From: an uncultured Candidatus Saccharibacteria bacterium
GTDB lineage: Bacteria; Patescibacteriota; Minisyncoccia; Phycocordibacterales; UBA9973
NCBI GenBank assembly: GCA_964554645.1
Contig: CAZKPK010000003.1
Coordinates: forward strand, 4,256-68,255
Direction of reading: 5' to 3'
Length of the DNA: 64,000 bases
Below the pieces are notes generated by a model. It searched no databases. It worked only from the letters and a program-made list of their open reading frames with translations, and was not told the origin of the DNA. Both the position numbers and the translations under genes were made by a program. Of the stretch, positions 7,194 to 53,090 are shown in pieces. Within the stretch, counting starts at the first letter, position 1. Each line of letters opens with the position of its first letter.

Positions 7194-8092
7194 AAGATTA
7201 CACAGGCCCTATTTTTATTCTTATCGCGGCAACGCTCTGGGCATTTGACGGTCTCATTCGACAGCATTTATATTCGCTTCCGCCCATTACCATCATATTT
7301 TTTGAACATCTTTTTGGTCTTATAATTCTGTCTCCTTTCGTTTACAAATATTTTTCTCAGACAAAACTTTCAAAAAGGGATTGGTGGCTTGTTATTTTGA
7401 TATCAATTTTAAGCGGCCTCTTCGGAACATTATGGTTCACGACCGCGCTCGGCAAAGTCCACTTCATTTCCATCTCAGTCGTATTCCTCTTGCAAAAACT
7501 TCAGCCGATATTTGCTATTATAACCGCGAGAATTTTTTTGAAGGAAAAAATGGATGGGCGATATATAAAATGGGCTGTGCTCGCAATTATCGCGGCCTAT
7601 TTTGTGACCTTCAAAAATGGATATGTAAATTTTGCGACGGGTGAGGGAACAATCATTGCGGCTCTGTACGCGCTTGGCGCGGCTTTTGCTTGGGGTTCTT
7701 CAACGACATTTTCAAAAATGCTTTTAGGAAAAATAGATGCCAGACTCTCCACCTTTTATAGATTTTTAGTCACAACTGCAATAGTTCTTCCAATCTTGTT
7801 TTTATCAGGAAAAGGACCAAGTTTATCCGCGCCAACTATTTCTCAATTCGGCTGGCTAGCGCTCATTGCCGTCTCGACTGGCATGGTTGCTTTGCTTATT
7901 TATTATAAAGGGCTGGCAAGGACCCCGGTGCATATTTCCACAATTTTGGAGCTGACTTTTCCTTTCATTGCCATTTTTCTGGATATGATAGTGAATCATA
8001 CTGTACTTTCTTTCACTCAATGGGTTGCGGCTTTAGTGCTTGTGTTTGGTATTTACAAGATTGCCAGATTGCGTGAGAACGTTTCTTTGTGA
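7187..8092 (+). CDS. EamA/DMT-superfamily transporter
   Basis: About 10 predicted TM helices in two repeated halves. Confidence 0.65.
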   Translation: MLKDYTGPIFILIAATLWAFDGLIRQHLYSLPPITIIFFEHLFGLIILSPFVYKYFSQTKLSKRDWWLVILISILSGLFGTLWFTTALGKVHFISISVVFLLQKLQPIFAIITARIFLKEKMDGRYIKWAVLAIIAAYFVTFKNGYVNFATGEGTIIAALYALGAAFAWGSSTTFSKMLLGKIDARLSTFYRFLVTTAIVLPILFLSGKGPSLSAPTISQFGWLALIAVSTGMVALLIYYKGLARTPVHISTILELTFPFIAIFLDMIVNHTVLSFTQWVAALVLVFGIYKIARLRENVSL

Positions 8093-8101
8093 AATTAATA
8101 A

Positions 8102-8135
8102 TTACTTAACTCTACCGGTCGGAAAAGTTAGGTAA
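8102..8135 (+). repeat. family C hairpin TTACTTAACT-N14-AGTTAGGTAA, 9 nt upstream of the 8145 start codon
   Basis: Second copy at 48361-48394 sits upstream of purQ in the same hairpin-TTTAAAAAG-ATG arrangement. Confidence 0.7.
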
Positions 8136-8144
8136 TTTAAAAAG

Positions 8145-8483
8145 ATGAAACAAACAGATTTGTTAAAGAAAAAATGTATATCGTGCGAGGGGAAAAGCAT
8201 TAAACCTCTAGATAGAGCTGGCGCGCAGGATTATTTAGATGAAACACCGGGTTGGGTTTTAGATAAAGATGTAAAGAAAATTTCCAAAGAATTTAAATTT
8301 AAGGATTTTATCGGAGCGATAAATTTCGTGGAAAAAGTGGCCGAGATTGCCGAAATGGAAGGGCATCATCCGGATATTCATATTCACTACAACAAAGTCT
8401 TGCTCGAACTCTGGACACACGCCATCGGCGGGCTTTCTGAAAACGACTTCATCGTCGCCGCCAAAATCGACGCACATAATTAG
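8145..8483 (+). CDS. pterin-4a-carbinolamine dehydratase
   Basis: EGHHPD...W.TH..GGLSE.D...A.KID signature of the PCD/DCoH family. Confidence 0.8.
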   Translation: MKQTDLLKKKCISCEGKSIKPLDRAGAQDYLDETPGWVLDKDVKKISKEFKFKDFIGAINFVEKVAEIAEMEGHHPDIHIHYNKVLLELWTHAIGGLSENDFIVAAKIDAHN

Positions 8484-8560
8484 TTTTTGAAATATGCATT
8501 TGACTTTTATTTTGTGGATGAATTATAATTATTTTATAAAAAATTTTCCAAAATAACAAT

Positions 8561-9235
8561 ATGTCACAAAGAGTAAAAATTAAAGTTCTCACAAAAACAA
8601 AACTTTGGTCTATCGTGCTTTTTTTACCCATTTTACCGGCGCTTATTTTCGGTGGTTGGCTTGCGCTTCATCAAGGTAATATATACATCTCATTTAAAAA
8701 TAGGCCACATGATATGCCGTATGCTGATAGTGCCAGGGACTATCAGGTCTGGGCAAAAATAGTGAATGGACCGTGGTTTGAAAACTTATTATTGGCAAAT
8801 GTGTATGATAATGGCTTAAATTCCTTTGGTTTAGATAAGAAATTTCCCATTTACACCAGATATCTTGACATAGATAATGATGGACAAAAAGAAATTGAAA
8901 TAATTGGAACTTATTATGGACCAGGTACAGTCAAATATTTATTAAAAAAGGAAGATGGAAAATATGAAATTGTGCATCATGTTGACGAGTGGGGCACCGA
9001 TAAAGAGGCTTTTTCTTCCGAGCAAATTAGTTTTTTAGATATGGATAATGATCTTCGACTAGAAGCGGCGACTGATTCCTTCCTTGATTACGAAAACGCT
9101 CCGGACCAGATTTGGACGAGTTACTATCGTTTCGATGGTGATCATTATCAATTTTACAAAAAAGATATAGTAAATTTCTCTGATTTTAAACGTCTCTTTG
9201 TTATGGCGCCGGATTATTATGCAAGTCGTCATTAG
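8561..9235 (+). CDS. hypothetical membrane-anchored protein with DxDxDG (FG-GAP/VCBS-like) motifs
   Basis: N-terminal TM segment; DIDNDGQKEIEI and DMDNDLRLE calcium-binding-like motifs; bracketed by a duplicated copy of the PCD gene 3' end. Confidence 0.45.
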   Translation: MSQRVKIKVLTKTKLWSIVLFLPILPALIFGGWLALHQGNIYISFKNRPHDMPYADSARDYQVWAKIVNGPWFENLLLANVYDNGLNSFGLDKKFPIYTRYLDIDNDGQKEIEIIGTYYGPGTVKYLLKKEDGKYEIVHHVDEWGTDKEAFSSEQISFLDMDNDLRLEAATDSFLDYENAPDQIWTSYYRFDGDHYQFYKKDIVNFSDFKRLFVMAPDYYASRH

Positions 9236-9243
9236 CAGTCCCT

Positions 9244-9290
9244 CCGAAAACGACTTCATCGTCGCCGCCAAAATAGATGCGCATAAATAA
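9244..9290 (+). repeat. diverged duplicate of the 3' end of the PCD gene (8439-8483)
   Basis: 29-bp identical core GAAAACGACTTCATCGTCGCCGCCAAAAT; the rest is about 80% identical. Confidence 0.8.
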
Positions 9291-9337
9291 AAACTTATAA
9301 CTCCACAATAGCAGAAACTTAAGTAAAAACACAAATT

Positions 9338-9367
9338 CCATAATAGCAACGGTCGTTGCTATTATGG
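9338..9367. repeat. family A intergenic palindrome CCATAATAGCAACGG-CCGTTGCTATTATGG type (copy 1)
   Basis: 14-bp perfect arms between convergent genes. Confidence 0.8.
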
Positions 9368-9589
9368 TAACAAGATTAAAAGTAAAAAATACAAAAGGGC
9401 GGGTCGTTTTCTTAAACGAGCACCGCCCAAGTTGTGCGTTTGGCAAGAACGCGATGTTAGGCCTTCTTTCTTTCCCCACAATGGACGCAGTAGAAGCCGG
9501 GGACACATCCCCAGTCACCCCTGGGCCACCTGATGCGATCTTCCTTGGTTTCTTTCCATATGTGTTTTCCCGTTGGGGATTTTTTACAT

Positions 9590-13772: not shown

Positions 13773-14501
13773 GTGGAAAGAGATACTTACCAAATAAAAA
13801 TGTCCGGTTTTGAGGGTCCTTTTGGGCTGCTTTTGGATCTGATAGAAAAACGCAAGTTTTTTATCAATGATGTATCGCTTGCGGCCGTGACCGAAGACTA
13901 TCTAAACTATATGAATAAATTAGGCGGTCTGCATCCTTCGGAAATTGCCAGCTTTATCATTGTGGCGTCAACTCTTATTTTAATTAAATCAAAATCTCTT
14001 CTGCCGAATTTAAATCTTACAATGAAGGAAGAGGGTGATATAAAAAATTTAGAGGAACGCTTGCGTTTGTATGAACTTTTTACAAAACTTGGAATTAATA
14101 TAAAAAATAATTTTGGCAGAAAAATAATTTTTGCGCCACTAGAAAGAAAAAAAGAAATTTTGGTTTTTTTGCCGGATAAGGAGATCACGAAGGAGAATAT
14201 GATGGGTTTTGCAAAGAACATTCTTGGATCAATGCCCAAAAAAGCTTTTTTGCCCGAAGTGGAAGTGCAGAAAGTTATCAGTATCGAAGAAATGATAGAG
14301 AAGTTAACACAAAGAATCCAAAGTTCAATTAAAACAAGTTTTCAAGCTTGGCATGGTAAAATAGTTACTCGGGAAGAAAAAGTAATCGCGATAGTCGGCT
14401 TTTTGGCGTTACTGGAGTTGGTTAGACAAGGAATTCTGGACGCGGTGCAAGAGATTAATCATGGAGATATTATTTTTGAGAAACAAGAATTAATGAAATG
14501 A
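13773..14501 (+). CDS. scpA: segregation and condensation protein A
   Basis: ScpA N-terminal signature FEGPFGLLLDLIEKRKFFINDVSLAAVTEDYL. Confidence 0.8.
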   Translation: MERDTYQIKMSGFEGPFGLLLDLIEKRKFFINDVSLAAVTEDYLNYMNKLGGLHPSEIASFIIVASTLILIKSKSLLPNLNLTMKEEGDIKNLEERLRLYELFTKLGINIKNNFGRKIIFAPLERKKEILVFLPDKEITKENMMGFAKNILGSMPKKAFLPEVEVQKVISIEEMIEKLTQRIQSSIKTSFQAWHGKIVTREEKVIAIVGFLALLELVRQGILDAVQEINHGDIIFEKQELMK

Positions 14502-15070
14502 ATTTAGAATCAAAAATAGAAGCGATATTATTTTGGAAAGGAGAACCGGTTTCCTCAAAACGATTACAGGATATTTTGAAAGTTTCCAAAGAAGAAATTT
14601 TAAATGCTATTTCAAAACTGAAAGAAAATTTGGCAAATAGGGGAGTAGCGCTGGTAGAAAAAGACGGCGAATTTACGTTGGGCACTGCGCCGGAATTGAC
14701 CCAAATTATTGAAAATCTACAGAAAGAAGAATTAAACAAAGAACTTTCCAAGGCGAGTTTAGAAACATTATCTATTGTGCTTTATAAATCTGGAGTGAGC
14801 CGGGCGGAAATAGATTATATCCGGGGAGTGAATTCCAGTTTTACTTTACGCGCGTTGTCTGTCCGCGGACTTATAGAAAGGACAGAAGATCCTAAAGACC
14901 ATAGACGCTTTATATATAAACCCAATTTTGAGCTAATGTCTTATATGGGAATAAAATCTATAGAGGAATTACCGGATTATATGGAAGTGAAAAATTCGAT
15001 GGATATTGTAGCTAAAAATTTGGAAAATTTTTCTGACCAAGAAGCGGGAGAGAGTCAAAATGAAAACTGA
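14498..15070 (+). CDS. scpB: segregation and condensation protein B
   Basis: IEAILFWKGEPVSSKRL... tandem wHTH; overlaps scpA by 4 nt. Confidence 0.8.
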   Translation: MNLESKIEAILFWKGEPVSSKRLQDILKVSKEEILNAISKLKENLANRGVALVEKDGEFTLGTAPELTQIIENLQKEELNKELSKASLETLSIVLYKSGVSRAEIDYIRGVNSSFTLRALSVRGLIERTEDPKDHRRFIYKPNFELMSYMGIKSIEELPDYMEVKNSMDIVAKNLENFSDQEAGESQNEN

Positions 15071-15082
15071 TTGAGATAACAC

Positions 15083-15106
15083 AATAGCAACGGCCGTTCC
15101 TATTAT
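15083..15106. repeat. family A palindrome (copy 2, AATAGCAACGGCCGTTCCTATTAT)
   Basis: Sequence match to the other copies. Confidence 0.7.
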
Positions 15107-15119
15107 ACTATGATGCAAA

Positions 15120-16676
15120 GTGAAACCAAAATACGCTCTGGATTCCGGAATAATTATTTATTGCAACAAATGTTGGTGGAGCGACAAATGGGATGCAAAA
15201 AATTATGGAATGGATTATGATTTTTCCAGACCATTTTTTGTCCAATTCAGAGAACTCATAGGCAAAGTCCCGCATATTTCTGTGGTCAATGACGATGGCA
15301 TCGCGAGCGTAAACTGCGAATATACCCACGACTGGTGGTTTTCTAAGAATTGTTATATGAGTTTTTCCGGCTGGTATGTGGAAAATGTAATGTATAGCTT
15401 CTTTATGTTAGCTGGCCGAGACATGATGGACTGCATGAATATCAGATCAAAAAACGAATGGCTATATGAGTGCATGATTGCCAGAAGTTGCTATCAATTA
15501 AAATATTCTCAATTCTGCTGGGCTTGCATTGATTCACAATTTTTATTTGACTGTAGAAACTGTTCTAACTGCTTTATGTGTGCCGGTCTCAGGGGGAAAA
15601 AATATTATTTTAAAAACAAAGAATATTCAAAAGAAGAATATCAAAAGATTTTAGAAAGTTATCAACTTAACACATTTTCCGGAGTGGAAAAAGCGCAAAA
15701 AGAATATGATGAATTTATTTTGAAATACCCTCGAATGCACTTGCATTCCATTCAGAACGTTAATTGCATTGGTGATGTTGTCTCACTTTCTAAAAATGTG
15801 AAATATTGCTTTGTAGCCAGAGAATGTGAAAATTGTAGGTATTGCGATTTTTTTTCAAATGATAAAGAATGTTATGACCTAGTAATGACTGGCGAGACCT
15901 CAGAAAGTTATGAAGGAGTCGTAGTTGATCAATCTCAACTTAATCTTTTCGGAATTTTTTCCGTTAAAAGCCAAGATATAAAATATATGCAACATTGCCA
16001 TAATTGTAAGCATTGTTTTGGTTGTGTCGGGCTTCGCGATTCAAATTACTGCATTTTTAATAAGCAATATACTAAAGAAGAATATGAAAAATTGGCACCG
16101 AAAATTATAGAGCAGATGAATAACATGCCTTTTATAGACAAAATTGGAAATAAATATAAATATGGAGAATTTTATCCGATAGAACTTTAACCTTTTGGCT
16201 ACAATGAAACTTTAGCCATGGAAGATATAGTTTTATCAAAAGAAGGGGCTCTTAAAAGGGGATTCAACTGGCAGAACAATGTCCAACAAACTACTGGCAA
16301 AGAAACACTGAAAGCAGAAAATATTCCTGACAGCATAAATGAGATAGGGGATTCAATATTAAATGAAGTGTTTGCCTGCGTTGATTGTAAAAGAAATTAT
16401 AAAATTATTCCGAATGAACTTATTTTTTACAGAAAAATGAAAATTCCTATCCCACGGAGATGTTTCTATTGTCGGCATGCGAATAGATTAAAGAAAAGAA
16501 ATCCCTTTAAACTTTGGCATAGGACTTGTATGTGTGGTTCGACGGGTTCACCACAGGCGACAACGGATCATTCCCATGGAGAAAATAGATGCGAAGTGGA
16601 ATTTGAAACTTCCTATGCTCCAGACCGTCCGGAAATAGTGTATTGTGAAAAATGTTATCAGCAAGAAATATATTAG
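15120..16676 (+). pseudogene. degraded paralog of the 48403-50139 Cys-rich repeat protein: N-terminal zinc ribbon missing, single in-frame TAA at 16188-16190
   Basis: ORFs 15120-16190 and 16218-16676 are in the same frame and align end to end with the 578-aa protein (CRNCSNCFMCAGLRGKKYYFKNKEYSKEEY; C-terminal FKTSYAPDRPEIVYCEKCYQQEIY). They are separated only by a TAA. A family A repeat sits where the N-terminal 70 codons would be. Confidence 0.55.
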
Positions 16677-16719
16677 TTACCCATTTAGCAATAAGAAGCG
16701 GTCGCGTACTAATGCTGAG

Positions 16720-17532
16720 CTAAAGACAACTTGGATTAATACTAAGCACGTAGTCATTAATTAAGTCAAAAGAGAAAACATATTCATCTCCCAAGAAACC
16801 TTTGATATCTTCATTTTTGATTAAATTTTTATATTCCTGCATAAAAGTTTGCGAGAGGGGAAGATAAGACCAGTGCCATTTTTCTTCATTGTAGCCAGTT
16901 GGCCTAGCGCTGCCTTTCAGATCATATGTTTGGCAAAATCCAAATTGATAAGCATTTTTTGTAAGCCATTCATATTCTTTTTTTCCTTTCTGCGAATTAA
17001 AATACTGGGGGTTTGCATCATTTATATCTATATCCGTACCCCAGTGATGGCGCGACATGCCGGGAACAGCGCTGTATTCCAATATTTTTTCAAATCTTTC
17101 TTGCCCAGCAGGTGTGCTTTTTGACAAATCTTTCCCATCAATAATAGTAACTCCAGTCCATTTTTTTTCCCAGAGATCTTTCTGATAATCAAAATTTCTG
17201 GTGGCGGAGGCTATTCTCAGATTAATAGAATCCTTATTGGCGGCATTGCGCATTTGTAAGTATGCTCCATACGTTTCTTTTCTTAAATAAATTTTATTTG
17301 GAACAAGCGTATATTCAGGCGAGACTAAAATAAAATTTTCTCTTTGCGCCGGATCAAACTGGCCGGTCAAATAAATTTTTCGCTCCGCCTTTCTTTCATT
17401 TTCTTTTCTTATCATTTCTTCTTCTTTTTGCCTCAAATCCAGAAAGTCTGTCGTGAAGTAAGGCATAAACGTGATAAACACCAGCGAAAACACCAAGAGA
17501 GCCAGTGTAAGTTTTGAAATATTTTTTTCCAC
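16720..17532 (-). CDS. D-Ala-D-Ala carboxypeptidase (M15/VanY-like)
   Basis: SRHHWGTDIDI zinc-binding motif; N-terminal TM anchor. Confidence 0.7.
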   Translation of the reverse strand: MEKNISKLTLALLVFSLVFITFMPYFTTDFLDLRQKEEEMIRKENERKAERKIYLTGQFDPAQRENFILVSPEYTLVPNKIYLRKETYGAYLQMRNAANKDSINLRIASATRNFDYQKDLWEKKWTGVTIIDGKDLSKSTPAGQERFEKILEYSAVPGMSRHHWGTDIDINDANPQYFNSQKGKKEYEWLTKNAYQFGFCQTYDLKGSARPTGYNEEKWHWSYLPLSQTFMQEYKNLIKNEDIKGFLGDEYVFSFDLINDYVLSINPSCL

Positions 17533-24397: not shown

Positions 24398-24634
24398 ATG
24401 AAAAATATTAAAAAAATACCAGCCCAAGGCTGGTCCGCCTCAGGCGGAAAAAATAAAAAAAGCGGCTTTTTAAAATTAATCATTGTTATAATCATTGCTC
24501 TTCTTTTGATGCGTTATTTTCATATTACCATATCCGACATTTTAAATTATTTTCAGCTTTCTTGGTCTGAAGTTATCGATTGGCTCAAAAAGGCTCTAAA
24601 CTGGCTCAAAGATTTATTTAATAGTGTGAAGTAA
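24398..24634 (+). CDS. small membrane protein; its N-terminus is encoded by a family D palindrome
   Basis: One TM segment; N-terminal PAQGWSASGGKNKK derives from the repeat. Confidence 0.3.
   Translation: MKNIKKIPAQGWSASGGKNKKSGFLKLIIVIIIALLLMRYFHITISDILNYFQLSWSEVIDWLKKALNWLKDLFNSVK
24419..24452. repeat. family D GC-rich palindrome (degenerate copy)
   Basis: CCAGCCcaaGGCTGG + TCCGCCTCAGGCGGA + A-run. Confidence 0.6.
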
Positions 24635-26418: not shown

Positions 26419-26892
26419 TTAAATTTTTTCCACCATTAGTTTAAACGAAGATTTTTTACCTTTTCCGCCAGAGGCGGACCCGCCTTGGGCGGGGATTTCT
26501 ACTGGAATTTCATGTTCCCCTATCGCTTTAATTGGTTTTTCTAAAACAATAAATTCCTCGCCAATATCCGCGTGATTTTGTTCTTTCATCGCTTCGATAA
26601 TTTCTTTCTTGTGAATGGCGGAAAAAAGATGTCCCAGCTCATTTGCTTTTCCTTTTAGGGTAATAGTTTTGCCTTTTATTTCTTCCAAATTTTTTAGGAG
26701 CAAACTTTCCCGCACTTCCCTTTCAATCGTGATCTCCTTTTTGCGCATTTCAAGCTCTGCCACAGCCTTTGGTGTGGCGACGACAGCCAATTTTTTAGGC
26801 AACAAAAAATTTACCGCATAGCCGTCGTTGACTTCCTTTAGGTCATACTTTTTCCCCACTCTTGGTATATCTTGTAAAAATATTATTCGCAT
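26419..26892 (-). CDS. rplI: 50S ribosomal protein L9; C-terminal region carries a family D repeat-encoded insert
   Basis: MRIIFLQDIPRVGKKYDLKEVNDGYAVNFLLP N-terminal domain and L9 C-terminal domain; AQGGSASGGK is encoded by the palindrome at 26461-26497. Confidence 0.85.
   Translation of the reverse strand: MRIIFLQDIPRVGKKYDLKEVNDGYAVNFLLPKKLAVVATPKAVAELEMRKKEITIEREVRESLLLKNLEEIKGKTITLKGKANELGHLFSAIHKKEIIEAMKEQNHADIGEEFIVLEKPIKAIGEHEIPVEIPAQGGSASGGKGKKSSFKLMVEKI
26461..26497. repeat. family D GC-rich palindrome TTTTCCGCCAGAGGCGGACCCGCCTTGGGCGGGGA
   Basis: CCGCC-N3-GGCGG twin hairpins; lies inside the rplI 3' coding region. Confidence 0.75.
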
Positions 26893-30542: not shown

Positions 30543-30584
30543 CCATAATAACATAATAGACACGGCCGTTGTCATAGTGTTATC
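30543..30584. repeat. family A palindrome (copy 3, ..ATAATAGACACGGCCGTTGTCATAGTGTTAT..)
   Basis: Downstream of the purB stop. Confidence 0.65.
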
Positions 30585-33313: not shown

Positions 33314-34282
33314 TTAGATTGCGTATTTTTTTAGATTATTTTTGATTCTTTTTTCAATATTTCCGGTTTCGGCTACAAAAGGGATTCCGGTAATTTGCTC
33401 ATATATTTGTATATATCGGCGGGATAATTCCGCAATCATTTCCGGCGGAGCCGGAGGCATCACTTTGTCTTTATATGGATCAGAATGTTCTTTGAACCAT
33501 AAACGTAGAAATTCTTTGTCAAAATTTTCCGGCTCTAAGCCTTTATTTATTCTATCTTGATACGAATTCGCTTGCCAATATCTGGAAGAATCGGGCGTAT
33601 GAATCTCGTCTATCAGCACCACCTCTCCATTTTTCGCGAGTCCAAATTCATATTTTGTATCCACTAAAATCAATCCTTTCTTTAAAGCGATTTCCTGTCC
33701 ACGGGCAAAAAGTTTCAAAGCTGCGCTGGAAACTTTTTGCCAAACTTCCGGCGTCATTATTTTTTCCTCTAAAATAATTTTACTAGTCAGTGGTCTGTCG
33801 TGGGCTTCAAATTTTGTGGTAGGTGTAAGGACTGGCTTGTTTAGTTTTTGATTTTTATGCATGCCGTCGGGCAGAGTAAAATCTCCAAAATTTCTTTCTC
33901 CTTTTTGATACAAGGTCCAAAGAGAAGTTCCGGTTACTCCAGTAATATAACCTCGCGCCACCATTTCTACGGGAATTACCGCGCATTTCTTACCCACTAC
34001 CACATTCGGATCGGGAAAATCTAGAGCATGATTTTTCACGATATCTTTGGTGTTTTCAAACCAAAACTTGCTGATTTGCGTCAGCACTTGCCCTTTGCCA
34101 GGTATTAATGCTAAATTGCGATCAAAAGCCGAGTATCGGTCTGTGGAAATCAGAATGATTTTATCACCTTGGCTATAAACATCTCTGACTTTGCCAGTAT
34201 ATTTTTCTCCTAGGTTCAAATTTTTTCCGCCCGAGGCGGATCCGCCTTTGGCGGAGAAATTTGTTTTTTCAAGTATATTCAT
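33314..34282 (-). CDS. purC: SAICAR synthetase; the called N-terminus likely over-extends into a family D repeat
   Basis: KVRDVYSQGDKIILISTDRYSAFD... SAICAR synthetase core. The true start is probably the TTG near 34206 (MNLGEKYTGKVRDVY); the upstream AKGGSASGGK is repeat-encoded. Confidence 0.85.
   Translation of the reverse strand: MNILEKTNFSAKGGSASGGKNLNLGEKYTGKVRDVYSQGDKIILISTDRYSAFDRNLALIPGKGQVLTQISKFWFENTKDIVKNHALDFPDPNVVVGKKCAVIPVEMVARGYITGVTGTSLWTLYQKGERNFGDFTLPDGMHKNQKLNKPVLTPTTKFEAHDRPLTSKIILEEKIMTPEVWQKVSSAALKLFARGQEIALKKGLILVDTKYEFGLAKNGEVVLIDEIHTPDSSRYWQANSYQDRINKGLEPENFDKEFLRLWFKEHSDPYKDKVMPPAPPEMIAELSRRYIQIYEQITGIPFVAETGNIEKRIKNNLKKYAI
34221..34258. repeat. family D GC-rich palindrome TTTTCCGCCCGAGGCGGATCCGCCTTTGGCGGAGAAA
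   Basis: Lies between purM and the purC core. Confidence 0.75.
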
Positions 34283-37899: not shown

Positions 37900-37956
37900 T
37901 ATGCTGAAATACTACCATAATTAAATTTTTACTCAAATTAAAAAAAATAATACTAG

Positions 37957-37989
37957 CATAATGGCAACAGCCGTTGCCATTAGTGAAAA
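37957..37989. repeat. family A palindrome (copy 4, TAATGGCAACagccGTTGCCATTA)
   Basis: 10-bp perfect arms. Confidence 0.7.
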
Positions 37990-38041
37990 AAGCCAGTGCA
38001 TTCCTCCTTGTGGGAGGGGTTAGACTGGCTCTTCCTGCGAG

Positions 38042-38647: not shown

Positions 38648-38743
38648 AATTTTTTTTATATTGTTGAGGTTTTGGTTATTCTTTTTTTAAATAACCATTT
38701 GTTCATTGTATTATAGCACATCAAAAAATTTTTGTGCTACTCA

Positions 38744-38895
38744 AACTTTATTAAAAACCGAAATAAGCGCGGAGTTAATCTTTTTCTTCATGATGAAGAA
38801 ATATTAACACAATTTTGTTTTTACTCAAACAAAAAAGCCAGTACTTGATTTTCCTCCTTTCGGGGTGCACTGGACTTTTCGAAAGTTAATCAGGA
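38744..38895. repeat. diverged duplicate of the purH 5' end and upstream region (compare 37851-38050)
   Basis: 26-bp identical run CTTTATTAAAAACCGAAATAAGCGCG, then about 65-70% identity including a remnant MKKKINSALISVF reading frame. Confidence 0.7.
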
Positions 38896-38918
38896 TTTCA
38901 GCCTGGCTCAAAAAACGA

Positions 38919-39167
38919 TTACCAAAACACATTGCCGTTCCCATCAACGATTTCTCGAACCTCTCTGCCTTCTAATATAGAAACAGAACCATCCGACACT
39001 ATCTTGATTTTTTTTCGGTCGAACAGCTTTGGTGTTTGGATGGCAAATCCGTTTTCCACTATTTTCTTGTTTCCATTCATCATTTTGACTACAAACGGAG
39101 CTTTTACTACCCAACATGACGCAGTGTTTATGCAAGGAAGCATGTCAAAAGTTTTTTCATTTTTCAC
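38919..39167 (-). CDS. hypothetical small protein
   Basis: 82-aa ORF, no motif. Confidence 0.2.
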   Translation of the reverse strand: MKNEKTFDMLPCINTASCWVVKAPFVVKMMNGNKKIVENGFAIQTPKLFDRKKIKIVSDGSVSILEGREVREIVDGNGNVFW

Positions 39168-41034: not shown

Positions 41035-41037
41035 AGA

Positions 41038-47549: not shown

Positions 47550-48350
47550 TTATTTTCCGCCAAAGGCGGATCCGCCTTGGGCGGAAAAGTATTCAACTGC
47601 GTTTTTAAAAATTTGAAGCCCTTTTCCCTCTTTTGAAACTTTTTTATTCCCACCAGAGGAACGGGCAAGCATTTGCCACATCGGACTTTGGTGAGAAAAC
47701 ATTGCCCGTTCCGGATGAGGCATCATTCCCAAAACTCTTCCATTATAGGCTAAAACTCCCGCAATGCAAAAGTCTGAGCCATTTGGATTATATTCTAAAT
47801 TTTGAAATTTACAAATTTCTCCTTTTATATAAATGAAAGCTGTTTGGTTATTTTTCTTCAAATTTTTATATCCTCCTGCGCCTATCACATAACGTCCTTC
47901 GCCATGCGCTATCGGGAGCGATATTTTTTTGATTCCCTTCAGCCAGGGGCTATTTCCAATCGACTCTAAGTCGACCCATCTATCAATATATTTGCCATTT
48001 TTATTGTAAGTCAAAGCCCCCGGCAGAATTCCTAAATTAGTCATAATTTGAAATCCATTGCAGATGCCTATGGCCAGAGTGTCGCGCGATAAAAATTCCG
48101 CTAGTTCTTTTGCCAAATGATTTTTTAATTTATTAGCGTAGGCTTTCCCGCTGCCAGTATCGTCGCCGTAAGAAAATCCTCCCGGGAAAGCCAAAATCTG
48201 GTATTCAGACAGCATTTTTGGTTTGGCAATGAGATCATTGATATGCACGATGTCCGCGTTTCCCCCAACCGACTCAAAAGCGAATTTTGTTTCTTCTTCG
48301 CAATTGAGCCCGTAGCCGGACATTATTATAACTTTTGGTTTATTTTTCAT
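47550..48350 (-). CDS. purQ: FGAM synthase glutaminase subunit PurQ; C-terminal tail encoded by a family D repeat
   Basis: GICNGFQ, HGEGR and MPHPER motifs; ends ...YFSAQGGSAFGGK*, which is repeat-derived. Confidence 0.8.
   Translation of the reverse strand: MKNKPKVIIMSGYGLNCEEETKFAFESVGGNADIVHINDLIAKPKMLSEYQILAFPGGFSYGDDTGSGKAYANKLKNHLAKELAEFLSRDTLAIGICNGFQIMTNLGILPGALTYNKNGKYIDRWVDLESIGNSPWLKGIKKISLPIAHGEGRYVIGAGGYKNLKKNNQTAFIYIKGEICKFQNLEYNPNGSDFCIAGVLAYNGRVLGMMPHPERAMFSHQSPMWQMLARSSGGNKKVSKEGKGLQIFKNAVEYFSAQGGSAFGGK
47553..47588. repeat. family D GC-rich palindrome TTTTCCGCCAAAGGCGGATCCGCCTTGGGCGGAAAAG
   Basis: Clearest copy; inside the purQ 3' end, 3 nt before the purF start. Confidence 0.8.
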
Positions 48351-48402: not shown

Positions 48403-50139
48403 TTAATAAATTTCTTGCTGATAACATCTTTCACAATAAACTATTTCAGGGCGATCTGGAGTATAGCTGGTTTTAAATTCTACTTTACATTTTTCTTGTC
48501 CATGAAAATGATTTTCTTTTTTACACATACAAATTCTATCCCAAAGCTTTAAGGGATTCCTTAAATTGATCCGCTGATAATGCCTGCAATTCGGGCATAA
48601 TCTAGGCAGAGGCAAGTTCATTCTTTTATAAAACTTGAATTCTTCCGGAATAATTTTAAAGGCTTCGGTGCACTGATCTTTACATTGGCCACTGTGCCCG
48701 CAAGCAATTACTTTATTCACTATATCATCTTTTATATCTTCAATATTATCTAGTATATTTTTATTTTCTATATCAATTTTATAATTTCTTTCTTCCGTAT
48801 TTTGCCAAGAATATCCCTGTTTTAAGGCTTCTTCCTTGGTTAAGGGAAAATATTCTTGCGCAATTGTTTCATTATAGGCAAATGGCGAAAGCTCGGACGG
48901 AAAAAATTCTCCGTATTTATAAACTCTTCCCTTCCTATCTACATAGGGTATTATATTCATCTGTTTTATAATTTTTGGCAAAAGTTCTTCATATTCTTCT
49001 TTCGTATATTGTTTGTTTAATATGCAGTATTGTTTTTTACGCAAACCTTCACAACCAAAAATATTTTTGCAGTCTCGGCATTCCTCATTATATCTGGTAT
49101 CTTGGTTGAAAATGTTTCTCATCCCAAAAGCCATATTTGATCCACCAAACCCGTTAGTGATTTCATAAACAAGTTCACTGTTCCAACCTTGAAATGAGGT
49201 GTCGTAAGCATCCTTGGCGTGATTTCTGATATAAAATAAATATTTTGAGTCTTCTGTCTGACCAGAGCTGAATGAATAGTGAGTATTGCGTGCTTCGGAC
49301 AAATCATCTCCATCTGAGGCGACTGATTTATAAATGCGGGCATATCTATGAGGTAAAGTTAATTCTAATTCTTCTAATTTTTTCAGAAACTCAAGATGTC
49401 TTTTATGGCTTCCCTTATTTTCTTTTATAAAGTTACCGTATTCCTCTTTTGAATGTGGTTTGTTAAAAATATAATATTGTTTATTTACTAGCCCGACACA
49501 ACCGAAACAATTCATGCAATTTCGGCAATCGATCAAATAAGAACTGTCCACACAATCAAAAGAATATCTGCTAAAAAATAATTTATTTGTTCTCATGCAT
49601 TCAAAATTCTCATAACTGAATTCATTTTTTTCGCAAAAAGCTACATCTAAAGAATCACGAGAGTCTCTGACTTGATTTCCAAAATAAACTCTTTCATTTC
49701 CTTTTCCCCCGAATAATAAATAACATTCTTTAAAATCCAGACCGTAATTGCAATAATCGCTTAATACAAAATTATCTCTGTATAAATTTGCTCTCGGGAC
49801 TGTTCTCTGGAGTGATTGAAATTGAGTGAAGAATGGGATTGAAAAATCATAATCGCGTTTATAACTCATTACATCCCATTTGTCTGAAAACCAACAATCA
49901 TAACAATAAACAATATATGGGCGTTCTTTATGATATAAACCTATAATTGATTTTTGACATAAGGCGCATTCTCGTTTGTAAAATACTCTGTTGTTTCTAA
50001 ACAGTAATCTTCTTTGGAATCTACACTCCGGACAGAATGTCGGCGGAGGAACTTTTAGTTTTTCATAAAAATTAAAATCTTCCGATTCGATGATGAAATC
50101 TTTTTGGCAATTTTTACAGATTTTTTCTTTATTACTCAT
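48403..50139 (-). CDS. cysteine-rich repeat protein with N- and C-terminal zinc-ribbon modules; unknown function; embedded in the purQ-purL interval
   Basis: Many CxxC pairs; internal repeats CRNCMNCFGCVGL..Y.I.NK.Y.KEEY; terminal modules F.I..E.F.FY.K...P.P..CP.CR. Confidence 0.6.
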   Translation of the reverse strand: MSNKEKICKNCQKDFIIESEDFNFYEKLKVPPPTFCPECRFQRRLLFRNNRVFYKRECALCQKSIIGLYHKERPYIVYCYDCWFSDKWDVMSYKRDYDFSIPFFTQFQSLQRTVPRANLYRDNFVLSDYCNYGLDFKECYLLFGGKGNERVYFGNQVRDSRDSLDVAFCEKNEFSYENFECMRTNKLFFSRYSFDCVDSSYLIDCRNCMNCFGCVGLVNKQYYIFNKPHSKEEYGNFIKENKGSHKRHLEFLKKLEELELTLPHRYARIYKSVASDGDDLSEARNTHYSFSSGQTEDSKYLFYIRNHAKDAYDTSFQGWNSELVYEITNGFGGSNMAFGMRNIFNQDTRYNEECRDCKNIFGCEGLRKKQYCILNKQYTKEEYEELLPKIIKQMNIIPYVDRKGRVYKYGEFFPSELSPFAYNETIAQEYFPLTKEEALKQGYSWQNTEERNYKIDIENKNILDNIEDIKDDIVNKVIACGHSGQCKDQCTEAFKIIPEEFKFYKRMNLPLPRLCPNCRHYQRINLRNPLKLWDRICMCKKENHFHGQEKCKVEFKTSYTPDRPEIVYCERCYQQEIY

Positions 50140-50175
50140 AATAGTATAATAGACACGGCCGTTGCTATTGTGCTA
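50136..50175. repeat. family A palindrome (copy 6, ..ATAATAGACACGGCCGTTGCTATTGTG..)
   Basis: Downstream of the purL stop. Confidence 0.65.
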
Positions 50176-50201: not shown

Positions 50202-53090
50202 TCATTTTTGTGAGTTGGAAAATTTATGATAAACTTTGTGCAGTTTTTTTACATTCGTTTCAATTACTTTACTTTTACCGTCTGTAATTATAACTTTACC
50301 ATTCTTTTCTACTTTTCCAAGTTTAACATAGGAAATTCCTTTGCATATTTTTTCAAATTCTTTTGTGTTTTTGGGAGACACAGATACTAAAATTCTACCT
50401 TGGCTTTCGGAAAAAAGCTTAACATCTATAGATAAAACGGAAGCAAGGCTTCCGTTTTGGAGATTTTTTATGGAAACATTACAGCCCAGCATTCCGCCGA
50501 CACAGGCTTTGGCCAACGCAATTCCTAATCCTCCCGAAGTTACCGAAATTGAAGAAACTACGAGTTCTTTTTGAATGGCTTTTTCTAACGCCAGATAAGT
50601 TTTTAGATTTTTCTCTAAATTAACCTTCGGCACGAGTTCGTCGTTTGTTTCCCCTAATAAATAAATATAGTCACCACTATTTTTAAATTCTGGTGAGACA
50701 GTTTTATACAGATCGGGCATTACGCTGATTGCGGAAATAAGAAGCGTCGGTGGAATAGAAATAGCAACCGGATTCCCTTTCTCATCATAGCCTTTAAAAT
50801 CATTAAACATGCTGTCTTTGCCCGAAATAAATGGAGTGCCGTAGCCTACGGCATAGTCGTAGCAGGCTTTTACTGCCTCTACGAGCTGGTATAGACGTTT
50901 CGGGTCATTAGAAGAGCACCAGCAAAAATTGTCCAGTATCGCGAGATGTTTAAGCGTTCCTCCAGTGGCAATTACGTTTCGGATGGCGGTATCCAGAGCG
51001 CAAGCCGCCATATGATATGCGCTAATATCTCCGTAAGAAGGATAAATGCCATAGGATAAAACAACTCCCTTATTTGAATCTAGAACCGGGCGAAATACTT
51101 GCGTGTTGGTATTTATGCGTCCTGGACCAGAAAGTGGCTTCAACACAGAAGACGCCTGCACTTCATGGTCATATTGCTCGGAAATAAAAGAAAATCCAGA
51201 AATATTTTTGTCGGCAAGTAAATTTTCTAAAGTTTTTGTGTACACCTCACCCGGCTTTTCGAGATTTGGGTCCCACCCCAAATCTCCCCTTTCCTTAATA
51301 AGGAGAGGGGCTGGGGGTGAGGTTCTAAGTTGCTGTTTCGGCAATCCGTTATGCAAAAACTCCATATCCAATTCCATAATCTTTTTTTTCTTGTATTGCA
51401 CAATAACTTTTCCGGAATTTGTAAATTCCCCTATCACCATTGCTTCCACTCCCCGACTTTCCATTAATTTTTGGAATGTTCCCCATTTATTTTTAGGAAC
51501 AGATAAAGTCATGCGTTCTTGCGATTCGGAAATCCAAATTTCCCACGGACGCAGACCCGTATATTTAAGCGGAACTTTTTCTAAAAAAACTTTCGCTCCA
51601 TCACATTCTTTTGCCATTTCTGCCACTGAACAAGATAATCCTCCGGCGCCGTTATCAGTAATGCTGTTATATAAATTCAGATTGCGAGCTTCTTTGACTA
51701 TTGTGTCGCTTAATTTTTTTTGCGTAATCGGGTCGCCGATTTGCACGGCGGTTGCAGGCGAGGCTGAATCAAGCGTTACGGAAGAAAATGTTGCTCCATG
51801 GATTCCATCTAATCCGACTCTTCCGCCGATCATGACTATGTAATCGCCCACCTGCGCTTTTTTTTCATGAGCAGGTTTTTTTCCTCCCGAAACAGATAAA
51901 TTTCTTGGAATTAGACCTATGGTTCCAGCAAAAACCATCGGTTTGGCCCGGTAACGGTCGTCAAATTTTATAAAACCAGAAAGGGTGGGAATACCGGAGC
52001 AATTTCCTCCAACATTGATGCCTTTTATTACCCCGTTCATTATCCTTTTAGATGAAAGCATCGATTGAGTGAGATTTTTGTCTTTAAAAAGTTTTCGTGC
52101 ATCGTTCGGCTGGCTAAAACAAAATCCGTAAGTATTGGCAACCGGTTTGGCTCCTAATCCAAAACCGATTGTATCGCGGTTCACTCCGACAATGCCAGTT
52201 ACGGCGCCGCCAAATGGATCAAGCGCCGAAGGGCTGTTGTGGGTTTCCACTTTGTGAGTGATTAAATAATCTTCATCAAAAACTATCCCGCCGGCATTAT
52301 CAGAAAAAACAGAAACACAAAAATCTTTGCCACCCTTTTTCTTGCGTATTAGATTTGTCGCTCCCTTTATGTAAGTTTTATATAATCCATCTTTAATATC
52401 GTCAATCGGATTTGCAAAAATAGTGTGTTTACAGTGTTCGGACCAAGTTTGGGCGAGAGACTCTAATTCAACATCAGTTGGATTTCTTTTTAATCTCGCA
52501 AAATGTTCCTTAATGATACGCATTGAAGATAAATCTAAGGCTAACGGTCCTCTCCGTTTTCCTGTTTCGTCCATTATTCCTTCTTTGCCTATTTTGATTA
52601 ACTCTTGTTCACTTACTCCAAGATCCACATTTATTACAGATTTTCTTTTTTTGAGCGCCACTTTAGGAACTTTTTTTGGAAAATTTATTTTACCAGCTTG
52701 AACGCGCGCCATATAAGCTCTTTCAATCAGTGAATTGTATAAAGTAAGAGAATATTTTTGAACATCTTCGAGTTTGCGCGATTTAATAAAAAAAATTTTT
52801 GAAGTATATACCTGAAATTTTGTATTGTTTTTTAAGTTAAGCAAATCTCGCGCAATTTCTTTGACAGTGTGTCCAACATTATCCGTCACTCCGGGCAAGA
52901 ATCCTATTTCAATTGCATAAGAAAAATCTCGCGCCGGCGGAGATTCATTAATAAAATAATTTTCTAAAATTGGATTAGTGAGCGCCTCGGCGATTTTAAC
53001 GAGTTTCTTTTTGGATAATTTAGAATCAATAAGATAGGAATTTGTCTTTTCACCTCCTCCTTTAAGCATTACATATATACGGGAAATCAT
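50202..53090 (-). CDS. purL: FGAM synthase large subunit PurL (with extended N-terminal region, possibly a fused PurS-like domain)
   Basis: AIR-synthase-related N/C domain pairs duplicated; 962 aa. Confidence 0.85.
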   Translation of the reverse strand: MISRIYVMLKGGGEKTNSYLIDSKLSKKKLVKIAEALTNPILENYFINESPPARDFSYAIEIGFLPGVTDNVGHTVKEIARDLLNLKNNTKFQVYTSKIFFIKSRKLEDVQKYSLTLYNSLIERAYMARVQAGKINFPKKVPKVALKKRKSVINVDLGVSEQELIKIGKEGIMDETGKRRGPLALDLSSMRIIKEHFARLKRNPTDVELESLAQTWSEHCKHTIFANPIDDIKDGLYKTYIKGATNLIRKKKGGKDFCVSVFSDNAGGIVFDEDYLITHKVETHNSPSALDPFGGAVTGIVGVNRDTIGFGLGAKPVANTYGFCFSQPNDARKLFKDKNLTQSMLSSKRIMNGVIKGINVGGNCSGIPTLSGFIKFDDRYRAKPMVFAGTIGLIPRNLSVSGGKKPAHEKKAQVGDYIVMIGGRVGLDGIHGATFSSVTLDSASPATAVQIGDPITQKKLSDTIVKEARNLNLYNSITDNGAGGLSCSVAEMAKECDGAKVFLEKVPLKYTGLRPWEIWISESQERMTLSVPKNKWGTFQKLMESRGVEAMVIGEFTNSGKVIVQYKKKKIMELDMEFLHNGLPKQQLRTSPPAPLLIKERGDLGWDPNLEKPGEVYTKTLENLLADKNISGFSFISEQYDHEVQASSVLKPLSGPGRINTNTQVFRPVLDSNKGVVLSYGIYPSYGDISAYHMAACALDTAIRNVIATGGTLKHLAILDNFCWCSSNDPKRLYQLVEAVKACYDYAVGYGTPFISGKDSMFNDFKGYDEKGNPVAISIPPTLLISAISVMPDLYKTVSPEFKNSGDYIYLLGETNDELVPKVNLEKNLKTYLALEKAIQKELVVSSISVTSGGLGIALAKACVGGMLGCNVSIKNLQNGSLASVLSIDVKLFSESQGRILVSVSPKNTKEFEKICKGISYVKLGKVEKNGKVIITDGKSKVIETNVKKLHKVYHKFSNSQK

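What the first reader, a model, noticed from the sequence alone, without database searches (positions are those of the whole stretch)
15120..16676. Cysteine-rich repeat-protein family: intact copy inserted between purQ and purL, second copy truncated and carrying an in-frame TAA
The 578-aa protein at 48403-50139 has about 40 Cys in CxxC pairs and an N-/C-terminal repeated zinc-ribbon module F.I..E.F.FY.K...P.P..CP.CR...R. It also has two internal modules C.NC.NCFGCVGL....Y.I.NKQYTKEEY. It sits inside the otherwise contiguous purF-purQ-[X]-purL block, which suggests a functional link to FGAM synthase or purine metabolism. The paralog at 15120-16676 aligns along its whole length. It lacks the first 70 codons, which are replaced by a family A palindrome. 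It contains a single same-frame TAA at 16188-16190, so it is a recent pseudogene or a sequencing error. It is not recoding, since TGA and TAA terminate the other genes normally. I do not recognise this family.
Basis: partly seen in the sequence, partly recalled or inferred. Interest (0 to 1): 0.65.

Follow-up and report, generated by a model that had tools for sequence, protein, structure and literature searches.

The report
Uncharacterised zinc-ribbon protein family; one copy dead
The window, from a tiny-genome Nomurabacteria (Patescibacteria) bacterium, holds one intact and one recently broken copy of a large cysteine-rich protein family that nobody has described; the family's link to purine synthesis looks like inherited gene order rather than shared function.

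Summary
Copy A (48403-50139, minus strand, 578 aa) lies between purL and purQ. Copy B (15120-16676) is its 43%-identical paralogue and has an in-frame TAA at 16188-16190.

Two details are wrong. A has 31 Cys, not about 40. B's 5' end was not replaced by a palindrome: B keeps its own ATG and 7 codons, followed by a frameshifting deletion of about 185 nt.

Both lesions are 100% identical in the NCBI MAG. Five independent per-run assemblies carry the TAA and two of them reach the deletion. B is therefore a real disrupted gene. It shows no other decay, so the disruption is recent.

A and B belong to two old orthologue groups of a Paceibacteria-restricted family with 3689 clusters at 50% identity. 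All members are annotated "hypothetical". Nothing reaches the curated threshold in Pfam or NCBIfam, and there is no PDB sequence or fold match. Some genomes carry up to 9 tandem paralogues.

The architecture is: zinc-ribbon pair, two duplicated beta-rich modules, zinc-ribbon pair.

The purL-A-purQ order is kept in five related genomes. Equally close A orthologues sit next to dnaJ or inside paralogue arrays with no pur genes nearby. The commonest neighbour is a soluble VirD4/HerA-like ATPase; its long forms carry a zinc finger of the type seen weakly in A and B. A role in FGAM synthase is not supported.

Most likely function (about 0.3, inferred): a non-enzymatic zinc-stabilised adaptor or scaffold for those ATPases.

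The parts
48403..50139 (-). Copy A: intact 578-aa member of the family, 100% identical to NCBI HYW72_01635 'hypothetical protein' (Candidatus Nomurabacteria)
49855..50139 (-). A residues 1-95: N-terminal pair of zinc ribbons. The first is C8/C11...C36/C39 (zf_Tbcl-like). The second is C58-x2-C61-x17-C79-x2-C82 (CxxC-x17-CxxC spacing).
   Evidence: Pfam PF13451 17.7 bits, below the cut-off of 24; hhalign against the C-terminal pair E 3e-18; pLDDT about 90; BFVD zinc-ribbon domain hits
49426..49797 (-). A residues 115-238: central module M1. Short beta strands end in C205-x2-C208-x2-C211-x2-C214-G-L...FNKxxSKEEY.
   Evidence: hhalign M1 against M2 E 1e-33; DSSP string and pLDDT 66-78
48979..49353 (-). 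A residues 263-387: central module M2, a duplicate of M1, ending in C354...C363-G-L...YCILNKQYTKEEY
48406..48729 (-). A residues 471-578: C-terminal pair of zinc ribbons, a duplicate of the N-terminal pair
15110..15131 (+). Remnant of B's native start: ATG ATG CAA AGT GAA ACC AAA A (MMQSETK). It is out of frame with the rest of B. The deletion junction is at about 15131/15132.
   Evidence: The 57-nt stretch of upstream region plus first codons of B is 79% similar to that of A (I4); frame translations and comparison with L086
15120..16190 (+). B fragment 1: mechanical ORF (GTG start, 356 aa) matching A residues 69-418; ends at the in-frame TAA
16188..16190 (+). In-frame TAA replacing the conserved Ser (TCT/TCG in orthologues) of motif ELSPF
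   Evidence: identical in 6 assemblies
16191..16676 (+). B fragment 2: in-frame continuation (ORF from ATG 16218, 152 aa) encoding the linker and the C-terminal zinc-ribbon pair
15075..15110 (.). Degenerate copy of the 36-nt intergenic palindrome, between the scpB stop (15070) and B's native ATG
50140..50175 (.). Degenerate copy of the same palindrome, between the purL stop (50202) and A's ATG (50139)
50202..53090 (-). purL: small-PurL type with a 197-aa N-terminal extension that Pfam hits on orthologues mark as FGAR-AT linker; upstream neighbour of A
47550..48350 (-). purQ: stand-alone glutaminase subunit; downstream neighbour of A
14498..15070 (+). scpB: conserved upstream neighbour of B orthologues (the order scpA-scpB-B-vanY-mraY is also seen in L003, L004, L086 and L088)

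Best explanation
A and B are members of two anciently diverged orthologue groups of one large protein family. The family is restricted to Paceibacteria (Parcubacteria) and has not been characterised.

Shown:
- Each full-length member has a pair of zinc ribbons at each end. The two pairs are duplicates of each other.
- Between them lie two duplicated beta-rich modules of about 125 aa, each ending in a Cys cluster, and then a conserved region of about 60 aa.
- No signal peptide is evident at the N-terminus and there is no transmembrane segment.
- No conserved catalytic-type motif is evident by inspection of the conserved columns.
- Orthologues evolve as slowly as the flanking housekeeping enzymes.
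- A is the intact orthologue that a Nomurabacteria sublineage carries between purL and purQ.
- B is the orthologue that normally follows scpA-scpB. In this population it was recently inactivated by a frameshifting deletion of about 185 nt, which removed most of the N-terminal zinc-ribbon pair, and by a Ser-to-TAA nonsense change.

Inferred:
- A's position in the pur operon reflects inherited gene order and probably co-transcription. It does not indicate a role in FGAM synthase.
- Mechanism (about 0.3 probability): family members are cytoplasmic, zinc-stabilised, non-enzymatic adaptors or scaffolds. The conserved zinc-ribbon ends would dock onto a common partner, the co-expanded soluble VirD4/TraD/HerA-like ATPases; the long forms of these carry a CxxC-x17-CxxC finger, the type A and B match only weakly. 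The more variable central modules would give each paralogue its own protein or nucleic-acid target.
For: Paralogy and architecture.

Family size and range:
- More than 7,900 clusters at 90% identity scored.
- 3689 clusters at 50% identity; the 150 best listed are mostly 540-610 aa.
- At least 596 matching stretches in the GTDB species-representative genomes. Nearly all kept loci are Patescibacteria or Parcubacteria lineages; three with other labels look like binning errors.

No curated family or structure. BFVD gives only zinc-ribbon domain hits.

Two orthologue groups in one genome with conserved synteny.

Same rate as housekeeping genes, window against L001/L003: A 74% against PurL 75%, PurQ 79%, PurD 79%; B 73% against ScpA 75%, ScpB 73%, FtsW 77%.

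B lesions. They are reproduced in 6 assemblies. B has 0 singleton substitutions at 99 otherwise invariant columns among 112 orthologues.

Context:
- Tandem arrays of up to 9 paralogues in about 20 kb.
- The ATPase is the commonest neighbour, present in 31 of 83 loci (two of the 83, L011 and L084, are the same region). About half of the 52 ATPase genes directly abut a family gene.
- The long ATPase forms hit zf_Tbcl_2/TIGR04272. That finger aligns weakly to family-profile positions 49-89.
- Arrays lie between dnaK and dnaJ.

Conservation pattern: the termini are the most conserved across paralogue groups (34-42% of positions identical in both groups). M1 and M2 are less so (17-22%), and group-specific conserved positions are concentrated in M1.
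Against: - No experiment or homology ties the family to any activity. The ATPase link is association only, and no such ATPase lies in this 64-kb window.
- purL-A-purQ is a tight, same-strand arrangement kept down to 64% identity, with a 4-nt overlap in L085. A lineage-specific role with the pur enzymes is therefore not excluded.
- The Cx2Cx2Cx2C clusters could bind Fe-S rather than zinc.
- The beta-module parts of the model have only moderate confidence (pLDDT 66-78).
- B's lack of decay also fits continued use of its fragments.
Confidence: 0.55

Rival explanations
1. One reading: A is an accessory subunit, assembly factor or regulator of FGAM synthase (PurL/PurQ) or of purine synthesis, which is why it sits inside the operon.
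For: - purL-A-purQ-purF is on one strand with gaps of 62 and 52 nt in the window.
- The same order is found in L001, L002, L005, L006, L014 and L085 at 64-75% identity.
- purL and A overlap by 4 nt in L085.
- L014 branches at the base of the A clade in the NJ tree, so the linkage may be old.
Against: - A orthologues at 66-72% identity in the same clade lie after dnaJ or in paralogue arrays, with no pur gene within 10 kb (L008-L013, L029, L084).
- Other paralogues also occur inside the pur operon (L006) and inside the scpAB and dnaK-dnaJ operons.
- PurL already carries an N-terminal extension with the FGAR-AT linker, and PurQ is a normal stand-alone subunit.
- A shows no similarity to PurS or to any pur protein.
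Confidence: 0.1
2. B is not dead. The two ORFs (356 aa from GTG 15120, and 152 aa from ATG 16218) are still expressed as a split, N-terminally shortened protein.
For: - B has 0 singleton substitutions at 99 otherwise invariant columns.
- The post-stop part is as conserved as in intact orthologues: 79-80% against 75-82%.
- An in-frame ATG lies 28 nt after the TAA.
- Both lesions appear fixed in six assemblies.
Against: - The deletion removes C8, C11, C36 and C39, which are invariant across the family.
- The native ATG is out of frame.
- No promoter-like or terminator-like signal exceeds chance.
- Orthologues that gene callers report as short (P0138, 523 aa) are in fact full length in the DNA. 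A natural short form was therefore not seen in the one such case checked.
- Absence of decay is expected for any recent pseudogene.
Confidence: 0.15
3. The TAA and the deletion are sequencing or assembly errors, or the TAA is recoded.
For: Single-base nonsense changes are a common MAG artefact, and the coding sequence is otherwise undecayed.
Against: - All five separate per-run Logan assemblies and the NCBI MAG carry the TAA.
- The two Logan assemblies that reach the junction carry the deletion, at 100% identity.
- There are two independent lesions.
- TAA is the commonest ordinary stop in the window, 28 of 47.
Confidence: 0.03
4. The family is a selfish or mobile gene, or a secreted effector family. 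That would explain tandem arrays, insertion into housekeeping operons and association with conjugation-type coupling ATPases.
For: - Arrays of up to 9 copies.
- Copies sit inside the pur, scpAB and dnaK-dnaJ operons.
- The neighbouring ATPases resemble VirD4/TraD/CedD.
- Copy number varies between close relatives: L086 has an extra copy after B.
Against: - Orthologues keep their position and evolve like housekeeping enzymes.
- Paralogues are only 30-50% identical, so the duplications are old.
- No homologue is found in phage or plasmid collections, and only one partial hit in 2.9 million viral contigs.
- The only integrase among the Pfam-annotated neighbours is about 7 kb from B in L003, and no transposase is seen. 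Most neighbour ORFs in the 83 loci were not annotated.
- There is no secretion signal or transmembrane segment.
- The ATPases lack an evident N-terminal membrane anchor (sequence).
Confidence: 0.1
5. The family binds Fe-S clusters or is a redox protein, rather than a zinc-structural adaptor.
For: - Cx2Cx2Cx2C clusters at the end of M1 (C205, C208, C211, C214) are at least 90% conserved.
- Each protein has 31-33 Cys.
Against: - The spacing is not the ferredoxin CxxCxxCxxxCP pattern.
- The M2 cluster is degenerate in A.
- In the most diverse alignment (A4), C205 and C208 are neither invariant nor 90% conserved.
- The best-conserved Cys are the four-Cys ribbons typical of zinc sites.
- No Fe-S family hit was found.
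Confidence: 0.1

Closest known systems
zf_Tbcl (PF13451) and zf_Tbcl_2 (PF23477) / TIGR04272 'CxxC-x17-CxxC domain' proteins: probable treble-clef zinc ribbons of unknown function
   Same: - The terminal modules have the same Cys spacing: C58-x2-C61-x17-C79-x2-C82, and C551-x17-C569-x2-C572.
- They give weak hits to these models.
- Some family members carry a precomputed PF13451 hit (P0417, P0420).
- The AF2 model matches viral 'zinc-ribbon domain' proteins: 41 aligned residues at rmsd 0.7, probability 1.0.
   Different: - The scores of A and B are below the curated cut-offs: 17.7 against 24 bits, and 13.7 against 27 bits.
- These domains cover only about 35% of the protein.
- The two beta modules and the region 388-445 have no counterpart.
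- The known families are themselves functionally uncharacterised.
Soluble VirD4/TraD/HerA-type P-loop ATPases with their partner proteins (coupling-protein and adaptor/substrate logic)
   Same: Family genes directly abut such ATPases in many loci. The long ATPase forms carry a CxxC-x17-CxxC finger, the type A and B match weakly.
   Different: - The comparison is by analogy only.
- The ATPases score far below the cut-offs of all conjugation families and lack an evident N-terminal membrane anchor.
- No other type IV secretion component was noticed in the annotated loci.
- No interaction has been shown.
- No such ATPase is in this window.
Left-handed beta-helix proteins (LpxA, PglD, gamma-carbonic anhydrase CcmM)
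   Same: These are among the top ten weak Foldseek matches to the improved model. The central modules are predicted as runs of short strands, about one every 10-14 residues.
   Different: E-values are 2.8-8 with probability 0.01, which is not significant. There is no hexapeptide-repeat Pfam hit. The repeat period and the Cys pattern differ.
PurS, the small subunit of the FGAM synthase complex that lies beside purQ/purL in many bacteria
   Same: Position in the operon next to purL and purQ.
   Different: There is no sequence similarity. A is 578 aa, against about 80 aa for PurS (size from general knowledge). PurL here already has an N-terminal extension with the FGAR-AT linker. A orthologues also occur without pur genes nearby.

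Membership tests
zf_Tbcl (PF13451) | Whole-protein HMM score at or above the Pfam gathering cut-off (24 bits) | tested here: not met
   A scores 17.7 bits (E 0.0035, residues 4-44). The B C-terminal piece scores 12.6 bits. Two other family members do carry a precomputed PF13451 hit.
zf_Tbcl (PF13451) | Two CxxC pairs forming a four-Cys ribbon, conserved across relatives | tested here: met
   C8, C11, C36, C39, C515 and C518 are invariant in 107 sequences, and C480 is also invariant. The model matches viral zinc-ribbon domain proteins.
CxxC-x17-CxxC domain (TIGR04272 / PF23477 zf_Tbcl_2) | Score above the curated cut-off (36 or 27 bits) | tested here: not met
   The B C-terminal piece scores 13.7 bits in Pfam and has no NCBIfam hit. 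The neighbouring long ATPases do pass, at 43-54 bits.
CxxC-x17-CxxC domain (TIGR04272 / PF23477 zf_Tbcl_2) | CxxC, 17 residues, CxxC spacing | tested here: met
   A has C58-x2-C61-x17-C79-x2-C82 and C551-x17-C569-x2-C572 (sequence; alignment). The second ribbon is degenerate in many other paralogues.
FGAM synthase complex component (PurS/PurQ/PurL) | Homology to a known subunit | tested here: not met
   No Pfam or NCBIfam hit to PurS, PurQ or PurL.
FGAM synthase complex component (PurS/PurQ/PurL) | Gene neighbourhood with purL/purQ conserved across orthologues | tested here: not met
   Conserved in 6 loci from five related genomes, but absent in about 10 loci with A orthologues of equal identity.
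Pseudogene (copy B) | Full-length intact orthologues exist, and the copy carries disabling lesions | tested here: met
   Orthologues are 566-615 aa. P0138, called short at 523 aa, is full length in the DNA. B has a frameshifting deletion of about 185 nt and a TAA.
Pseudogene (copy B) | The lesions are real, not assembly artefacts | tested here: met
   100% identical in the NCBI MAG and in 5 Logan per-run assemblies over the parts they cover. Read-level allele frequencies were not available.
Pseudogene (copy B) | Relaxed selection (excess changes at conserved sites) | tested here: not met
   0 singleton changes at 99 otherwise invariant columns. The post-stop segment is as conserved as in intact orthologues. 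This implies very recent inactivation or residual function.
DnaJ-type Cys-rich zinc-finger domain (CxxCxGxG) | Pfam DnaJ_CXXCXGXG hit | tested here: not met
   No hit at E up to 1. Only the genomic neighbourhood with dnaJ and dnaK is shared.
Anti-phage defence proteins (PADLOC) | Hit to any defence-system model | tested here: not met
   A gives 0 families. The neighbouring ATPases give only weak mad8/HerA matches.
Left-handed beta-helix fold | Significant structural match | tested here: inconclusive

The most novel reading that the evidence does not exclude
The family and the soluble VirD4/HerA-like ATPases, whose long forms carry a zinc finger, form a previously undescribed machinery specific to Paceibacteria and often embedded in the dnaK-dnaJ operon. 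Many slowly evolving paralogous zinc-ribbon-capped beta-module proteins would act as target-specific adaptors for ATP-driven handling of nucleic acids or proteins. The family may take up a noticeable share of these very small genomes (copy number per genome was not measured). A second, separate possibility is that the central modules represent a new fold.
Probability: 0.3. Interest if true: 0.75.

Novelty: categorically new. Interest (0 to 1): 0.5.

Why it matters
Patescibacteria have some of the smallest bacterial genomes. Even so, Paceibacteria keep many paralogues of this 570-aa protein, up to nine in a row, and these evolve as slowly as core enzymes. That pattern implies an important, lineage-specific cellular function that no curated resource describes.

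Defining that function, and its link to the co-expanded ATPases and the chaperone operon, would fill a visible gap in the biology of this uncultured group.

For this window specifically:
- The result corrects a tempting but unsupported annotation, a supposed purine-synthesis accessory protein.
- It documents a real, very recent loss of one paralogue in a natural population.

The sequences themselves are already public as "hypothetical proteins". What is new is recognising the family, its architecture and its genomic associations. No function has been demonstrated.

Tried and rejected
- Split large PurL. I tested whether A had split an ancestral large purL into purL and purQ. Rejected: PurL matches the small-PurL model best (461 bits, residues 198-957) and PurQ matches the stand-alone PurQ models best.
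- N-terminal loss as a natural short isoform. I considered this because several B orthologues are called at 523-536 aa. The one checked (P0138/L087) encodes the full N-terminus in frame upstream of the called start, so the short length there is a gene-calling artefact.
- Palindrome as the cause of the truncation, or as a regulatory RNA for the family. The element has six copies, all just after stop codons. Four of them are unrelated to family genes. The copies beside A and B fold weakly (z about 0), whereas the copies between convergent genes fold strongly.
- First MAFFT DNA alignment. It suggested that the scpB tail aligns with B's start. I treated this as unreliable low-complexity alignment once the retained ATG downstream of the palindrome was found.
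- Defence-system, phage, plasmid and viral-contig searches for A: nothing.
- Literature searches: six searches and one paper read found no description of the family.
- Promoter and terminator scans around A and B: nothing above chance.
Full report
**1. What is in the sequence**

The window has 38% G+C and uses the standard genetic code. Stop codons of the 47 long ORFs checked are TAA 28, TAG 11 and TGA 8.

Copy A (48403-50139, minus strand) is an intact 578-aa ORF. It is 100% identical to NCBI protein HYW72_01635, a 'hypothetical protein' of a Candidatus Nomurabacteria MAG. It lies between purL (50202-53090) and purQ (47550-48350), followed by purF, purN and purD.

Copy B (15120-16676, plus strand) aligns with A residues 69-578 at 43% identity, E 2e-141. 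One in-frame TAA at 16188-16190 interrupts it.

A has 31 Cys and B has 33.

No further copy is present in the window.

**2. The lesions in B**

Orthologues of B are 566-615 aa and carry an N-terminal module of about 65 aa that the window copy lacks. One orthologue called at 523 aa (P0138) was checked and encodes the full N-terminus in frame, so its short length is a gene-calling artefact.

The upstream regions and first codons of A and B are 79% similar over 57 nt (I4). This shows that B keeps its own ATG at 15110/15113 and about seven codons (MMQSETK).

A deletion then joins these codons to the codon for Tyr70 of orthologue L086. The deletion corresponds to about 185 nt and shifts the frame. 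The palindrome at 15075-15110 is therefore the normal intergenic element and not a replacement of the coding sequence.

The TAA replaces the Ser of the conserved motif ELSPF. This Ser is TCT or TCG in three orthologues, so one TCA-to-TAA step from a synonymous intermediate is enough.

Both lesions are real. The 152-aa downstream ORF is found on the NCBI contig and on five Logan assemblies of different sequencing runs. All are 100% identical to the window over the part of 15001-16700 that they cover. All five Logan assemblies carry the TAA, and the two that reach the junction carry the deletion.

Apart from these two lesions B shows no decay:
- It has no singleton substitution at 99 columns that are otherwise invariant among 112 orthologues.
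- The part after the stop is as conserved as in intact orthologues.

The inactivation is therefore recent. The alternative, which I rate less likely, is that the fragments are still used.

**3. The family**

- A and B each retrieve thousands of relatives at 65-83% identity. All are unnamed or called 'hypothetical', apart from one evidently wrong toxin-antitoxin label, and none has a precomputed Pfam hit.
- Contig lengths shared between the A and B hit lists suggest that several contigs carry one A-type and one B-type gene. For one relative this was confirmed with conserved neighbours: purL-A-purQ-purF, and scpA-scpB-B-vanY-mraY-ftsW.
- An exhaustive HMMER search finds 3689 clusters at 50% identity (1450 below E 1e-30). 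The 150 best listed are mostly 540-610 aa.
- A scan of GTDB species-representative genomes gives at least 596 matching stretches. Nearly all kept loci come from Parcubacteria/Paceibacteria lineages: Nomura-, Staskawicz-, Giovannoni-, Lipton-, Wolfe-, Jorgensen- and Sungiibacteriota. The few loci labelled otherwise (L029, L068, L083) look like binning errors; two of them are very short contigs.
- The family is strongly expanded. There are 202 genes in 83 loci, with tandem arrays of up to nine paralogues within about 20 kb.
- Between the window and its relative, A (74%) and B (73%) are as conserved as PurL (75%), PurQ (79%), ScpA (75%) and FtsW (77%).
- There are no homologues in the phage or plasmid collections, and only one partial hit in 2.9 million viral contigs.

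**4. Architecture and fold**

- Profile-profile comparison shows that the N-terminal 95 residues and the C-terminal 108 residues are duplicates (E 3e-18). Residues 115-238 and 263-387 are also duplicates (E 1e-33).
- The ends give sub-threshold hits to zf_Tbcl and zf_Tbcl_2 and have the CxxC-x17-CxxC spacing.
- No curated Pfam, NCBIfam or PADLOC family is matched at or above threshold. There is no PDB sequence match.
- AlphaFold2 with 107 diverse sequences gives pLDDT 85 and pTM 0.85. The termini and residues 370-480 are confident. The two central modules, made of short strands, have moderate confidence.
- Foldseek finds nothing significant in the PDB. The best E is 0.69, and weak hits to left-handed beta-helix proteins have E 2.8 or worse. 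In BFVD it finds only small zinc-ribbon domains.
- There is no transmembrane segment and no evident signal peptide.
- Conserved residues are mostly Cys, aromatic and Gly/Pro, with a few polar ones. By inspection there is no recognisable catalytic motif.
- The termini are the parts most conserved between the A and B groups (34-42% of positions identical in both). The central modules are less conserved (17-22%), and positions conserved within each group but different between them are concentrated in M1.

**5. Is A tied to purine synthesis?**

The order purL-A-purQ is kept in L001, L002, L005, L006, L014 and L085 at 64-75% identity. In L085, purL and A overlap by 4 nt.

Against a functional tie:
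- A orthologues of the same clade, at 66-72% identity, lie after dnaJ (L008, L011/L084, L029) or in paralogue arrays (L009, L010, L012, L013). None has a pur gene within 10 kb.
- PurL is of the small type with an N-terminal extension, and PurQ is a normal stand-alone subunit. Nothing is visibly missing from the enzyme.

I conclude that the position is inherited gene order in one sublineage. It probably brings co-transcription, but it is not evidence of a shared function. A lineage-specific role cannot be excluded; I give it about 0.1.

**6. Genomic associations of the family**

I clustered all neighbouring ORFs in the 83 loci.
- The commonest neighbour is a soluble P-loop ATPase of the VirD4/TraD/HerA type. 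It is found in 31 of 83 loci (52 genes), and about half of these genes directly abut a family gene on the same strand.
- Long forms of this ATPase carry a zf_Tbcl_2 / CxxC-x17-CxxC finger at 43-54 bits. That finger aligns weakly with the second ribbon of the family profile.
- The next commonest neighbours are dnaK (13 loci), an AI-2E transporter (13), dnaJ (12) and a sigma70-region-4/HARE-HTH protein (10).
- In L084 the order is dnaK, ATPase, paralogue, a 194-aa ORF, paralogue, ATPase, dnaJ, A orthologue.
- No such ATPase is in this window.

**7. Mechanism**

Shown: a cytoplasmic, Cys-rich, internally duplicated protein with four-Cys ribbons at both ends, under strong purifying selection, co-expanded and co-located with finger-bearing ATPases.

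Inferred (about 0.3): the ribbons are structural zinc sites that dock to a common partner, namely the ATPases and possibly the DnaK system. The central modules would give each paralogue its own target, so the paralogues act as adaptors or scaffolds rather than enzymes.

Rivals, detailed in the Rival explanations section: an FGAM synthase accessory protein, Fe-S or redox proteins, mobile or effector genes, and a still-functional split B.

**8. Verdict**

- The pur interpretation is not supported.
- The pseudogene is real, recent and in itself ordinary.
- The family is large, lineage-restricted, absent from curated resources and without a detectable structural relative. That is the part worth following up.

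Noticed in passing
window 9334-9369, 15075-15110, 30547-30582, 37952-37987, 44263-44298, 50140-50175; L001:15856: A 36-nt palindrome family (core ATAATAGCAACGGCCGTTGCTATTAT). All six copies are intergenic, 5-100 nt after a stop codon. The copies between convergent genes fold into strong 13-bp hairpins (-16 to -18 kcal/mol, z -3.5 and -6.4). The copies 5' of A and B are degenerate. Only one match was found in 1.39 Mb of related loci, at the equivalent purD/purA gap. It looks like a terminator-like or REP-like element that has spread in this genome.
   Followed up: partly
window 24411-24451, 26456-26496, 34218-34258, 47548-47588 (weak copy at 57333-57373): A second, G+C-rich palindromic repeat (about 41 nt, CCGCC..GGCGGATCCGCC..GGCGG). 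The copy at 47548-47588 encodes the last 12 residues of PurQ (FSAQGGSAFGGK). PurQ is 266 aa here but 245 aa in the relative L001, so the element may have extended the ORF. Another copy overlaps the 3' end of ORF 26419-26892.
   Followed up: no
window 36346-53090: A large block of de novo purine genes. purF, purN, purD, purL, purQ and purA were matched directly. IMP dehydrogenase, guaA and purH are placed only by position, by analogy with L001 and L085. From general knowledge and the paper read, most CPR bacteria are thought to lack nucleotide synthesis, so this lineage is an exception. PurL is the small type with a 197-aa N-terminal extension.
   Followed up: partly
L084:1527-3602 and 7797-9293; L045:3878-6379; 31 of 83 related loci: Soluble VirD4/TraD/HerA-like ATPases of about 490 aa are co-expanded with the family. 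Forms of 610-830 aa add a CxxC-x17-CxxC finger and an unmatched C-terminal extension of 200-350 aa. They are often inserted together with family genes between dnaK and dnaJ.
   Followed up: partly
L086:7753-9480 compared with window 16676-16720: The closest long-contig relative has a second family paralogue (575 aa) between B and vanY. The window has only 43 nt there. Relative to that genome, this lineage lacks one paralogue entirely and has a disrupted B, which may point to ongoing contraction of the family here.
   Followed up: no
L006:14933-16687 and L005/L006 between purL and A: In some relatives the pur operon holds extra inserts: small ORFs of 123-217 aa between purL and A, and a second family paralogue between purN and purD.
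   Followed up: no
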